64,000 nt of DNA, from the NCBI RefSeq assembly GCF_036507355.1, contig NZ_AP027877.1; one strand, given 5' to 3'. Made by a program: the position numbers. Positions 5,101 through 7,329 of the stretch are shown here, in pieces. The first letter of the stretch is position 1. Each line of letters begins with the position of its first letter. The DNA is from Escherichia coli. GTDB taxonomy: Bacteria > Pseudomonadota > Gammaproteobacteria > Enterobacterales > Enterobacteriaceae.

Positions 5101-7329
5101 CTGGCTTAAGCCCTTCTCCATGCGATCGCTGATATTGCCCAGCGCCAGCACGCAGGCCACCGCCAGGCTTAGCGCCAGCCAGACAATTAATAGCGACGGC
5201 GAACGCCATTCGCGCCAGAACCAACGTGCAATCATGCTTCCTCCTGCAACTGCCCGTTCACCAGCCGTAAGCAGCGGTCGCAGCGTGCCGCCAGTTGCAG
5301 GTCGTGGGTCACCATAATCAACGTGGTGCCATGCTCACGGTTGAGGGAAAACAGCAGGTCGGCAATTTTATCGCCGGTCTGGCGGTCAAGGTTGCCGGTG
5401 GGTTCGTCGGCAAACAGCACATCAGGTCGACCGTTAAAGGCTCGTGCCAGCGCCACTCGTTGCTGTTCACCGCCGGAAAGCTGTGCCGGAAGATGATCCA
5501 GACGTTTACCCAGACCTAACTGTTCGAGCAACGCTTTCGCTCCGTTACGACTTTCCGCGCTACTCTCACCGCGCAGCAGCGCCGGAAGCTCGACGTTTTC
5601 CAGCGCGTTAAGGGTAGGAATTAACATAAATGACTGAAAAACAAAGCCGACGTGCTTCGCGCGCAACTTTGCCCGCGCTTCTTCGTCCATATTATGTAGC
5701 GGTTGTCCCACCAGACTCACTTCGCCACTGCTGCCGTCATCCAGCCCGGCGAGGATCGCCAGCAAGGTTGACTTACCCGATCCCGACTCGCCCACCAGTG
5801 CGATGGTCTCGCCACGTTTGACAACCAGCTCAACTCCGGTGAGGATGGAGAGTTCATGCTCCCCCTGACCGACGGACTTCTTAAGATGATGAACTTCAAC
5901 AATGTTTTCCGCTGGCATTTGCCCTTCCTGTTCCTGGTCCTGTTAACCTTCCGTGCCGCCGCAGCGGACACGTTATTGATTCTGGGTGATAGCCTGAGCG
6001 CCGGGTATCGAATGTCTGCCAGCGCGGCCTGGCCTGCCTTGTTGAATGATAAGTGGCAGAGTAAAACGTCGGTAGTTAATGCCAGCATCAGCGGCGACAC
6101 CTCGCAACAAGGGCTGGCGCGCCTTCCGGCTCTGCTGAAACAGCATCAGCCGCGCTGGGTGCTGGTTGAACTGGGCGGCAATGACGGTTTGCGTGGTTTT
6201 CAGCCACAGCAAACCGAGCAAACGCTGCGCCAGATTTTGCAGGATGTCAAAGCCGCCAACGCTGAACCATTGTTAATGCAAATACGTCTGCCTGCAAACT
6301 ATGGTCGCCGTTATAATGAAGCCTTTAGCGCCATTTACCCCAAACTCGCCAAAGAGTTTGATGTTCCGCTGCTGCCCTTTTTTATGGAAGAGGTCTACCT
6401 CAAGCCACAATGGATGCAGGATGACGGTATTCATCCCAACCGCGACGCCCAGCCGTTTATTGCCGACTGGATGGCGAAGCAGTTGCAGCCTTTAGTAAAT
6501 CATGACTCATAAAGCAACGGAGATCCTGACAGGTAAAGTTATGCAAAAATCGGTCTTAATTACCGGATGTTCCAGTGGAATTGGCCTGGAAAGCGCGCTC
6601 GAATTAAAACGCCAGGGTTTTCATGTGCTGGCAGGTTGCCGGAAACCGGATGATGTTGAGCGCATGAACAGCATGGGATTTACCGGCGTGTTGATCGATC
6701 TGGATTCACCAGAAAGTGTTGATCGCGCAGCCGACGAGGTGATCGCCCTGACCGATAATTGTCTGTATGGGATCTTTAACAATGCCGGATTCGGCATGTA
6801 TGGCCCCCTTTCCACCATCAGCCGTGCGCAGATGGAACAGCAGTTTTCCGCCAACTTTTTCGGCGCACACCAGCTCACCATGCGCCTGTTACCCGCGATG
6901 TTACCGCACGGTGAAGGGCGTATTGTGATGACATCATCGGTGATGGGATTAATCTCCACGCCGGGTCGTGGCGCTTACGCGGCCAGTAAATATGCGCTGG
7001 AGGCGTGGTCAGACGCGCTGCGCATGGAGCTACGCCACAGCGGAATTAAAGTCAGCCTGATCGAACCCGGTCCCATTCGTACTCGCTTCACCGACAACGT
7101 CAACCAGACGCAAAGTGATAAACCAGTCGAAAATCCCGGCATCGCCGCCCGCTTTACGTTGGGACCGGAAGCGGTGGTGGACAAAGTACGCCATGCTTTT
7201 ATTAGCGAGAAGCCGAAGATGCGCTATCCGGTGACGCTGGTGACCTGGGCGGTAATGGTGCTTAAGCGCCTGCTGCCGGGGCGCGTGATGGACAAAATAT
7301 TGCAGGGGTGAGTTGAAGCGCGCGCTTAA

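What the first reader, a model, noticed from the sequence alone, without database searches (positions are those of the whole stretch)
5856..5918. tesA and ybbA diverge with overlapping 5' coding ends
The tesA start (~5886) lies inside the first codons of the oppositely oriented ybbA (start at 5918), so the two promoters must be interleaved within coding sequence. The track ORF for tesA is extended 10 codons upstream in frame, which may reflect alternative starts.
Basis: seen in the sequence. Interest (0 to 1): 0.2.

Follow-up and report, generated by a model that had tools for sequence, protein, structure and literature searches.

The report
tesA and ybbA overlap head-to-head
Two E. coli genes whose products form one membrane complex (tesA and ybbA) point away from each other yet share about 30 bases of coding DNA, so each gene's promoter lies inside the other gene; this is real and conserved, but already annotated and published.

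Summary
The window is E. coli chromosome. ybbA (- strand) can only start at ATG 5918. tesA (+ strand) starts at ATG 5889 (RefSeq/PGAP model) or 5886 (K-12 model). That gives a 30 or 33 bp head-to-head coding overlap in the same codon register.

ATG 5889 and the ybbA start are invariant in the window plus 80 Enterobacteriaceae species loci (81 sequences). ATG 5886 is ACG in 16.

The 10-codon upstream extension (ATG 5856) is not a conserved start. It is the antisense of YbbA His21 (CAT) and becomes GTG, CTG or TTG elsewhere. Published mapping puts the tesA transcription start at 5854, only 2 nt upstream. Its apparent ribosome-binding site is really the tesA promoter -10 region.

The tesA promoter (TTGACA 5818-5823, 17 bp, GAGGAT 5841-5846) lies in ybbA codons 24-34. 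It shows up as frozen synonymous sites. ybbA is transcribed from several weak, unconserved start sites inside tesA (5980, 6073, about 6261, 6305, 6487). The two mRNAs are therefore antisense over at least 127 nt, covering both start codons.

The overlap is in the K-12 annotation, was noted in a 2025 YbbAP-TesA structure paper, and is listed as a divergent "excludon". Any regulatory role is unproven. Low interest.

The parts
5232..5918 (-). ybbA CDS (228 aa), the ATPase of the YbbAP type VII ABC transporter. The start at ATG 5918 is unambiguous.
   Evidence: ORF. Full-length match (1-228 of 228) to the NCBIfam equivalog NF007879. There is an in-frame stop 9 codons upstream and no other start codon before the Walker A motif. 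CAT 5916-5918 is invariant in 81/81 sequences.
5889..6512 (+). tesA CDS (207 aa precursor from ATG 5889). The K-12 model starts one codon earlier, at 5886 (208 aa).
   Evidence: PGAP start corresponds to window 5889 and the K-12 start to 5886. ATG 5889 is present in 81/81 sequences; 5886 is ATG in 65 and ACG in 16. NCBIfam equivalog NF007819, 410 bits.
5889..5918 (.). Head-to-head CDS overlap: 30 bp, or 33 bp counting from 5886. The two frames are in the same codon register, so tesA ATG-ATG is the antisense of YbbA His11-His10 (CAT CAT).
   Evidence: Synonymous-site diversity is about 0 in both frames here (ybbA codons 1-11 mean 0.05; tesA codons 1-10 mean 0.005), against about 0.42-0.46 in the rest of each gene.
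5856..5885 (+). In-frame 10-codon ORF extension (MLPLTDGLLK). Not a conserved start; it is a by-product of the ybbA His21 codon (CAT).
   Evidence: The 5856 codon is A42/G28/C9/T2 at its first base. Variation occurs only at + frame codon position 1. 14 species carry TAG at 5850-5852. The TSS at 5854 leaves a 2-nt leader.
5818..5823 (+). tesA promoter -35 hexamer TTGACA, inside ybbA codons 32-34 (V V K).
   Evidence: TTTGACAA 5817-5824 is invariant in 81/81 sequences. ybbA codons 32-34 have synonymous diversity 0.00. The hexamer lies at the correct distance from the mapped TSS.
5841..5846 (+). tesA promoter -10 hexamer GAGGAT (AAGGAT in most species), 17-bp spacer, inside ybbA codons 25-26.
   Evidence: AGGAT 5842-5846 is invariant, and 5832-5849 is nearly invariant. 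ybbA codons 24-29 have mean synonymous diversity 0.09. The TSS lies 8 nt downstream. The tool's strict consensus scan did not call it, because only 3 of 6 bases match in the -10.
5854..5854 (+). tesA (tesA-ybbO) transcription start site.
   Evidence: Kim 2012 Table: TSS 519021(-), 45 reads, 5'UTR 32 nt. Cho 2014 Table S6: 519021(-), 145 reads, sigma70/sigmaS, TU tesA;ybbO. The published promoter string maps exactly to window 5804-5854.
5854..5888 (+). tesA 5' UTR (35 nt to ATG 5889), AU-rich and unstructured, with a weak SD.
   Evidence: Fold z-score +0.79. Anti-SD duplex energy -3.2 kcal/mol against a background median of -2.5. 5865-5885 is nearly invariant (ybbA codons 12-18 mean synonymous diversity 0.09).
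5922..5930 (-). ybbA Shine-Dalgarno (CAGGAAGGG on the - strand), inside tesA codons 12-14.
   Evidence: Anti-SD duplex energy -7.0 kcal/mol. tesA codons 13-14 have synonymous diversity 0.00 and 0.06.
5889..5963 (+). TesA signal peptide coding region (25 aa from ATG 5889; 26 aa in the K-12 model). The mature protein starts at 5964 (ADTLL).
   Evidence: PDB chains 1IVN_A and 9GE8_T begin at ADTLL, which is residue 37 of the 218-aa ORF. The only positively charged n-region residue (Arg, 5910-5912) lies upstream of TTG 5919.
5980..5980 (-). Proximal ybbA-ybbP TSS (62-nt 5' UTR).
   Evidence: Cho 2014 Table S6: 518895(+), 48 reads, sigma70. Not reported in Kim 2012 or Cappable-seq. The promoter hexamers are weak and not conserved.
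6073..6487 (-). Span holding the distal ybbA-direction TSSs (6073, 6260-6262, 6305, 6487), all antisense to tesA.
   Evidence: Kim 2012: 518802 and 518570, 2 reads each. Cappable-seq: 518615 and 518388. Cho 2014: 518613 (6 reads) and 518388 (35 reads). TTTGCA-18-AACAAT fits the 6260-6262 TSS but is conserved in only 5-6 of 64 species.

Best explanation
This is a genuine, evolutionarily fixed head-to-head overlap of two protein-coding genes in E. coli.

Anatomy (shown).
- ybbA starts at ATG 5918 (- strand).
- tesA starts at ATG 5889 (possibly also 5886) on the + strand.
- The first 10-11 codons of each gene are therefore the antisense of the other, in the same codon register. The tesA ATG-ATG is the reverse complement of the YbbA His10-His11 codons.
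- There is no intergenic DNA, so every expression signal sits in the partner's coding sequence.

tesA signals.
- The sigma70/sigmaS promoter (-35 TTGACA 5818-5823, 17-bp spacer, -10 GAGGAT 5841-5846, TSS 5854) occupies ybbA codons 22-34.
- It is held in place by selection on ybbA synonymous sites.

ybbA signals.
- Its Shine-Dalgarno lies in tesA codons 12-14.
- Its weak, poorly conserved promoters lie further inside tesA (TSSs at 5980, 6073, about 6261, 6305, 6487).

Consequences.
- The promoters face each other. The tesA-ybbO and ybbA-ybbP mRNAs are complementary over at least 5854-5980, a span holding both ribosome-binding sites and both start codons.
- Shown: the overlap, its conservation, the embedded tesA promoter and the TSS positions (from published data).
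- Inferred: converging polymerases and/or sense-antisense pairing give some mutual interference, so the two operons tend to be expressed reciprocally.

The 10-codon upstream extension of the tesA ORF is not a functional alternative start. It is a by-product of the ybbA His21 codon.
For: Identity and annotation.
- establish the genes and their annotated starts.
- The ybbA start is unique.

Conservation.
- ATG 5889 and CAT 5918 are invariant with fixed spacing in 81/81 sequences.
- A homolog with 70% identity keeps the same overlap and promoter.

Synonymous-site footprint in ybbA (mean diversity by codon block; the rest of the gene is 0.46):
- codons 1-11: 0.05
- codons 12-18: 0.09
- codons 19-23: 0.47
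- codons 24-29: 0.09
- codons 30-31: 0.46
- codons 32-34: 0.00
Codons 1-34 differ from the rest with Mann-Whitney p = 9e-11. In tesA, codons 1-10 have mean 0.005 and codons 1-14 differ from the rest with p = 6e-7.

Transcription start sites.
- tesA TSS at 5854 appears in two published tables that share Kim's exponential-phase data. The published promoter string matches the window exactly.
- ybbA TSSs inside tesA are reported in three data sets.

Literature.
- tesA-ybbA is one of 16 divergent excludons in the E. coli MG1655 RNA-seq core set.
- The YbbAP-TesA structure paper states that the operons partially overlap.

Reciprocal expression.
- In the WT versus delta-rpoS table, tesA reads 6.2 versus 8.4 and ybbA 8.2 versus 7.2, log2.

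Signal-peptide logic.
- All distant homologs have K or R in the n-region. In E. coli that residue lies upstream of 5919.
Against: - No direct translation-initiation data (Ribo-RET, nascent N-terminomics) for tesA could be retrieved. The choice between 5889 and 5886 therefore rests on conservation only.
- tesA has a weak SD (-3.2 kcal/mol).
- Conservation of 5889-5918 is confounded by ybbA coding and by possible constraints on ybbA's own translation-initiation region.
- ybbA TSS positions differ between data sets, some have only 2-6 reads, and the strict promoter scan found nothing on either strand.
- The two tesA TSS tables are not fully independent, since Cho 2014 reused Kim 2012's exponential-phase data.
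- Mutual interference rests on one expression comparison whose column order I could not see, plus a computational excludon call. TesA and YbbAP form a complex, which makes mutually exclusive expression counter-intuitive.
Confidence: 0.85

Rival explanations
1. There is no coding overlap. tesA translation starts at TTG 5919, immediately after the ybbA start codon, giving a 197-aa precursor (MPFLFLVLL...). The annotated overlap would then be an over-extended gene model.
For: TTG 5919 is in frame, and many database models of TesA homologs (194-197 aa, MPFLFL...) start there. K. pneumoniae KPN_00472 is annotated at 594 nt.
Against: - The short models come from Prodigal-type callers, which forbid 5'-5' overlaps by rule.
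- TTG 5919 is TGG, CTG or GTG in 14 of 81 sequences.
- It has no SD (-1.5 kcal/mol).
- It would give a signal peptide with no positively charged n-region, unlike every distant homolog examined.
- ATG 5889 is invariant and ybbA synonymous sites across 5889-5918 are frozen.
- The NCBIfam equivalog profile covers the MNFNNVFRWH segment.
Confidence: 0.06
2. tesA uses ATG 5856 as a main or alternative start. This would give a 218-aa precursor and a 63-bp overlap with ybbA, driven by the strong SD-like GAGGATGGAGAG upstream.
For: It is the longest ORF. Its anti-SD duplex energy of -8.4 kcal/mol is the best of all tesA candidates. 5842-5849 is invariant. A start-capable codon (ATG, GTG or TTG) occupies this position in 72 of 81 sequences.
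Against: - The mapped TSS at 5854 excludes the SD-like element from the mRNA and leaves a 2-nt leader.
- The invariant GGATGG block coincides with the -10 region of that promoter.
- ATG or GTG here is automatic whenever YbbA residue 21 is His (CAY), and it becomes CTG or TTG when that residue is Gln.
- ybbA codons 19-23 have normal synonymous diversity (0.47). Every change is non-synonymous in the + frame.
Confidence: 0.05
3. The overlap is real but functionally neutral. It would be compaction left by start-codon drift between two linked genes, with no regulatory consequence. The antisense transcripts would be too rare to matter.
For: - ybbA promoters are weak and not conserved.
- The relative positions of the two starts drift between lineages (-33, -2, 0, +17, +25, +52 bp).
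- TesA and YbbAP work as a complex, so antagonistic expression has no obvious benefit.
Against: - The head-to-head arrangement with essentially no intergenic DNA is kept in 7 of 8 sampled homologs down to 40% identity.
- The pair is called a divergent excludon in at least 50% of RNA-seq samples.
- tesA and ybbA change in opposite directions in the rpoS comparison.
Confidence: 0.45

Closest known systems
E. coli K-12 tesA (b0494) / ybbA (b0495) as annotated in NC_000913.3 and described for the YbbAP-TesA complex (PLoS Biol 2025, PMC12646458)
   Same: It is the same locus. [quoted passage not shown]
   Different: Nothing substantive differs. This window's strain differs from K-12 by single SNPs, for example one mismatch at 6073-6123. 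PGAP places the tesA start one codon later than the K-12 model does.
Divergent excludons (overlapping 5' transcripts of divergent neighbours; ExcludonFinder, NAR 2025, PMC12288877)
   Same: tesA-ybbA is listed among the 16 divergent excludons of E. coli MG1655. TSS data show 5' mRNA overlap of at least 127 nt.
   Different: In most excludons only the UTRs overlap. Here the coding regions and both translation-initiation regions overlap as well. Mutual exclusion and RNase III processing have not been shown for this pair, and the partners encode one protein complex.
Head-to-head (divergent) overlapping gene pairs in bacteria (Huvet & Stumpf 2014, PMC4161906)
   Same: The 5' ends of genes on opposite strands overlap, and the overlap must have arisen through start-codon movement.
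   Different: This class is rare: 2 of 663 overlapping adjacent pairs in the E. coli reference used there. The overlap here is a multiple of three, a phase that paper describes as hardly ever seen.
Promoters embedded in neighbouring coding sequence / face-to-face promoters causing transcriptional interference (general concept, from my own knowledge)
   Same: A conserved sigma70-type promoter sits inside ybbA codons, and converging TSSs lie 126 bp apart.
   Different: Interference itself has not been measured at this locus.

Membership tests
Head-to-head overlapping CDS pair | Two genes on opposite strands whose 5' coding ends overlap | tested here: met
   ybbA runs 5918->5232 and tesA 5889 (or 5886)->6512. 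The spacing is invariant in 81/81 sequences.
Head-to-head overlapping CDS pair | Both start codons are the ones actually used | tested here: inconclusive
   ybbA has only one possible start. For tesA, conservation, signal-peptide logic and the family profile favour 5889/5886. No initiation-profiling data could be retrieved.
Divergent excludon | Divergent neighbours whose transcripts overlap at their 5' ends | tested here: met
   Published TSSs map at 5854 (+) against 5980, 6073, 6260-6262, 6305 and 6487 (-). The pair is listed by ExcludonFinder.
Divergent excludon | Reciprocal (mutually exclusive) expression of the two partners | tested here: inconclusive
   One data set (WT versus delta-rpoS, stationary phase) shows a tesA/ybbO shift of about +2.2 and +1 log2 while ybbA shifts about -1. 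I did not see the column order and found no other conditions.
Divergent excludon | dsRNA formation or RNase III processing of the overlap | not testable with these tools
   This needs rnc-mutant or p19 dsRNA-capture data for MG1655 519,671-519,797 (NC_000913.3 coordinates of window 5854-5980).
Sigma70-type promoter (tesAp) | -35 and -10 hexamers with a 16-18 bp spacer at the right distance from a primary TSS | tested here: met
   TTGACA (6 of 6 matches), 17-bp spacer, GAGGAT (3 of 6, with the key A-11 and T-7), and a TSS 8 nt downstream. Both hexamers are conserved. It falls below the threshold of the strict scan. Sigma70/sigmaS assignment is from ChIP plus TSS in Cho 2014.
TesA (NCBIfam NF007819, SGNH/GDSL hydrolase) | Equivalog score above the cut-off, a GDS motif, and a cleaved signal peptide | tested here: met
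   410 bits against a 270-bit cut-off. GDSLS lies at 5985-5999. The mature chain in PDB starts at ADTLL.
YbbA (NCBIfam NF007879, type VII ABC ATPase) | Full-length equivalog match including the N-terminus | tested here: met
   479 bits against a 336-bit cut-off, covering residues 1-228 of 228.
Leaderless mRNA (for ATG 5856) | Start codon at, or within a base of, the 5' end of the transcript, and conserved | tested here: not met
   The TSS lies 2 nt upstream. The codon is CTG or TTG in 11 of 81 sequences, and the extension shows no coding constraint.

The most novel reading that the evidence does not exclude
The zero-intergenic, head-to-head layout of tesA and ybbA could be an ancient, selected regulatory device. 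It is kept from E. coli to homologs of only about 40% identity, with start-to-start distances of -33 to +52 bp. Face-to-face promoters buried in each other's coding sequence would make 5' mRNAs that pair across both translation-initiation regions. That would couple, reciprocally or stoichiometrically, the synthesis of a periplasmic hydrolase and of the ABC transporter it docks onto.
Probability: 0.2. Interest if true: 0.4.

Novelty: already known. Interest (0 to 1): 0.17.

Why it matters
**Annotation.** Head-to-head coding overlaps are rare: 2 of 663 overlapping adjacent pairs in one E. coli survey. Prodigal's rules forbid them. As a result, many database TesA models (194-197 aa, MPFLFL...) lack the n-region of the signal peptide. 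This locus is a clean, well-conserved counter-example for gene callers.

**Biology.** It shows a conserved promoter written into the synonymous sites of a neighbouring gene. It also raises an untested question: are TesA and its transporter partner YbbAP co-ordinated through antisense 5' overlap? None of this changes what is already annotated and published for E. coli.

Tried and rejected
**Searches that gave nothing**
- The strict consensus promoter scan of 5500-6300 found no sites on either strand. The real tesA promoter has a weak -10 and falls below its threshold.
- Translation-start data were not available. The TRAINSPOTTER N-terminomics supplements have no TesA entry. The Ribo-RET preprint has no held supplements. 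The tetracycline-profiling supplements have no entry.
- TSS sources were incomplete. Thomason 2015 is not held. Conway 2014 has no held supplements. The Cappable-seq GTF is truncated, so only the MG1655 + strand (ybbA direction) could be read. The first query there failed because I used .3 coordinates instead of .2 coordinates.
- The Klebsiella TSS table for KPN_00472/3 is not in the held part of the Kim 2012 supplements.
- ExcludonFinder supplements are not held.

**Ideas tested and dropped**
- A structured 5' UTR or riboswitch-like element in 5854-5935: the fold is no better than shuffled sequence (z = +0.79).
- A conserved ybbA promoter inside tesA: after tesA codon 14 there are only scattered low-diversity codons. 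The two best hexamer pairs are conserved in at most 18 of 64 species.
- ATG 5856 and TTG 5919 as starts: rejected for the reasons given under the rival explanations.
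Full report
**1. What is in the sequence**

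- On the - strand an ORF runs from ATG 5918 to 5232 (228 aa, MPAENIVEVHHLKK...).
- On the + strand the longest ORF runs 5856-6512 (218 aa). It has two further in-frame ATGs at 5886 and 5889.
- The stretch is E. coli chromosome. 5416 of 5426 complete E. coli genomes carry at least 80% of window 5500-6300, and the best hit is 100% identical.
- RefSeq/PGAP annotates ybbA from window 5918 and tesA from window 5889. K-12 MG1655 annotates tesA c(519139..519765) and ybbA 519733..520419, a 33-bp overlap equal to window 5886-5918.
- Both proteins match their NCBIfam equivalogs: TesA NF007819 and YbbA NF007879, the latter over residues 1-228 of 228.

**2. Which start codons are real**

ybbA has no alternative start.
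- There is a stop nine codons upstream.
- No ATG, GTG or TTG occurs in frame before the Walker A motif.
- A good Shine-Dalgarno (CAGGAAGGG, anti-SD duplex -7.0 kcal/mol) precedes the ATG.

tesA has four candidates: ATG 5856, ATG 5886, ATG 5889 and TTG 5919. I aligned the window with one genome from each of 80 Enterobacteriaceae species, 86-100% TesA identity.

| Candidate | State across 81 sequences |
|---|---|
| ATG 5889 | invariant (81/81) |
| 5886 | ATG in 65, ACG in 16 |
| 5856 codon, first base | A in 42, G in 28, C in 9, T in 2 |
| TTG 5919 | replaced by TGG, CTG or GTG in 14 |

- The ybbA start CAT 5916-5918 is invariant and always 27 nt after the conserved ATG. The 30-bp overlap is thus fixed across the family. 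A 70%-identical homolog keeps it too.
- The two reading frames are in the same codon register. The three tesA-frame ATGs are simply the antisense of YbbA His21, His11 and His10 codons (CAT).
- A His codon (CAY) on one strand always reads RTG on the other. Species with Gln21 (CAR) read CTG or TTG at 5856.
- All variation within the 10-codon extension falls on + frame codon position 1, which is the ybbA wobble position. The extension shows no coding constraint of its own.

TTG 5919 would remove the overlap.
- It has no SD (-1.5 kcal/mol).
- It would give a signal peptide with no positive n-region. All distant homologs examined have K or R there, and the E. coli Arg (5910-5912) lies upstream of 5919.

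Solved structures (1IVN, 9GE8 chain T) begin at ADTLL, residue 37 of the 218-aa ORF. All candidate starts would therefore yield the same mature protein, and N-terminal proteomics of mature TesA cannot decide between them.

**3. Where the promoters are**

tesA:
- Kim et al. 2012 (PMC3415461) list a tesA TSS at NC_000913.2 519021(-) with 45 reads and a 32-nt 5' UTR.
- Cho et al. 2014 (PMC3923258, Table S6) list the same position with 145 reads, assigned to sigma70/sigmaS, transcription unit tesA;ybbO. Cho 2014 reused Kim's exponential-phase data, so the two tables are not fully independent.
- The published promoter string matches window 5804-5854 exactly, so the TSS is window 5854.
- Upstream lie TTGACA (5818-5823), a 17-bp spacer and GAGGAT (5841-5846).
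- ATG 5856 is therefore only 2 nt from the mRNA 5' end. The SD-like GAGGATGGAGAG in front of it (-8.4 kcal/mol) is the -10 region and is not transcribed from this promoter.

ybbA direction (all start sites are inside tesA):

| Window position | Source and support |
|---|---|
| 5980 | Cho 2014: 48 reads, sigma70, 62-nt UTR |
| 6073 | Kim 2012: 2 reads |
| 6260-6262 | Cappable-seq, and Cho 2014 with 6 reads |
| 6305 | Kim 2012: 2 reads |
| 6487 | Cappable-seq, and Cho 2014 with 35 reads |

The promoters are thus face-to-face, not literally interleaved. The two mRNAs are complementary over at least 5854-5980, which contains both ribosome-binding sites and both start codons.

**4. Evolutionary footprint**

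I measured, per codon, the fraction of species pairs with the same amino acid but different codons. The means outside the constrained 5' blocks are 0.46 for ybbA and 0.42 for tesA.

| ybbA codons | Window span | Mean diversity | Feature |
|---|---|---|---|
| 1-11 | 5886-5918 | 0.05 | CDS overlap |
| 12-18 | 5865-5885 | 0.09 | proximal tesA 5' UTR |
| 19-23 | 5850-5864 | 0.47 | TSS and ATG 5856 |
| 24-29 | 5832-5849 | 0.09 | -10 region |
| 30-31 | 5826-5831 | 0.46 | spacer |
| 32-34 | 5817-5825 | 0.00 | -35 |
| 35-228 | rest of gene | 0.46 | none |

- ybbA codons 1-34 differ from the rest with Mann-Whitney p = 9e-11.
- TTTGACAA 5817-5824 and AGGAT 5842-5846 are invariant in 81/81 sequences.
- The conserved blocks coincide with the experimentally mapped promoter. 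The unconstrained gap coincides with ATG 5856.
- In tesA, codons 1-10 have mean 0.005 and codons 13-14 (the ybbA SD) are low. After that, diversity is normal (codons 1-14 versus the rest, p = 6e-7).
- No conserved ybbA promoter is visible. The best hexamer pairs on the - strand are conserved in at most 18 of 64 species.
- The tesA 5' UTR is unstructured (z = +0.79) and has a weak SD (-3.2 kcal/mol).

**5. How far the arrangement goes**

I took representatives of TesA homologs at 40-70% identity and looked them up on their contigs.
- Seven of eight have a divergent ybbA-like ABC ATPase directly upstream, plus an FtsX-type permease wherever the contig extends far enough.
- The called start-to-start distances are -33, -2, -2, 0 (CAT|ATG), +17, +25 and +52 bp.
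- The distance from the Walker A glycine codon to the GDS glycine codon is 192-277 nt.
- The pair is therefore kept head-to-head with essentially no intergenic DNA across wide divergence, while the exact start positions drift.

**6. Mechanism**

Shown: the anatomy described above.

Inferred: RNA polymerases from tesAp and the ybbA promoters converge, and the 5' mRNA segments can pair. This should produce some mutual interference.

Evidence consistent with this:
- ExcludonFinder lists tesA-ybbA among 16 divergent excludons found in at least 50% of MG1655 RNA-seq samples.
- In Cho 2014 Table S7 (wild type versus delta-rpoS, stationary phase) the genes move in opposite directions. tesA reads 6.36/6.02/6.19 versus 8.48/8.86/7.90, and ybbA reads 8.38/7.95/8.35 versus 7.44/7.25/6.94. 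I did not see the column order.

This is thin evidence. TesA docks onto YbbAP as one complex, so strict mutual exclusion would be odd. A neutral-compaction reading remains about as likely as a regulatory one.

**7. Comparison with what is known, and verdict**

- The overlap is in the K-12 reference annotation.
- It is catalogued as a divergent excludon.
- Divergent coding overlaps are rare: 2 of 663 overlapping adjacent pairs in one E. coli survey.

What I add:
- the preference for ATG 5889 as the conserved start;
- the rejection of ATG 5856 and TTG 5919 as starts;
- the synonymous-site footprint of the embedded tesA promoter;
- the breadth of the compact head-to-head layout.

These are refinements of a known feature, not a new kind of system. 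Novelty: already known. Interest: low.

Noticed in passing
window 6312-6317: tesA codons Tyr142-Asn143 (207-aa numbering) read TATAAT and show zero synonymous variation in 64 species, although both codons are two-fold degenerate. They lie next to the weak ybbA-direction TSS at 6305, whose -10 would be the reverse complement TATAAC or TTATAA. The cause of the constraint is unexplained.
   Followed up: partly
window 6397 (+ strand): Cho 2014 lists an internal TSS for ybbO inside tesA: 518478(-) in NC_000913.2, 79 reads. ybbO may therefore be transcribed both with tesA and on its own.
   Followed up: no
window 5878 (- strand): A sigmaS-assigned TSS, attributed to ybbP only, lies 40 nt inside ybbA (518997(+), 18 reads). 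Its -10-like CATCAT is the YbbA His10-His11 codon pair, which is the antisense of the tesA ATGATG.
   Followed up: no
window 6502-6512 and 5232-5235: tesA and ybbO overlap co-directionally by 11 bp. ybbA and ybbP overlap by 4 bp (ATGA type). These are ordinary operon junctions.
   Followed up: no
proteins P0085 and P0089 and many 194-197-aa entries: Truncated TesA models that start MPFLFL are widespread in metagenome-derived protein sets. They result from Prodigal forbidding 5'-5' overlaps, and they lose the n-region of the signal peptide.
   Followed up: yes
L026 (Leclercia adecarboxylata NCTC13032) and L041 (Citrobacter amalonaticus): ybbA is frameshifted in these two assemblies, to 60 and 29 codons. 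L041 has an extra G in a G-run at codon 19-20. These are probably homopolymer sequencing errors rather than pseudogenes.
   Followed up: partly
L084 2500-2503; L086 1738-1743: In distant homologs the two start codons share bases (CATG, a 2-bp overlap) or abut exactly (CAT|ATG). These are other solutions to the same zero-intergenic layout.
   Followed up: partly
window 7336-8226: The longest cnoX ORF starts at 7336 (296 aa), but PGAP annotates the start at window 7372 (284 aa).
   Followed up: no
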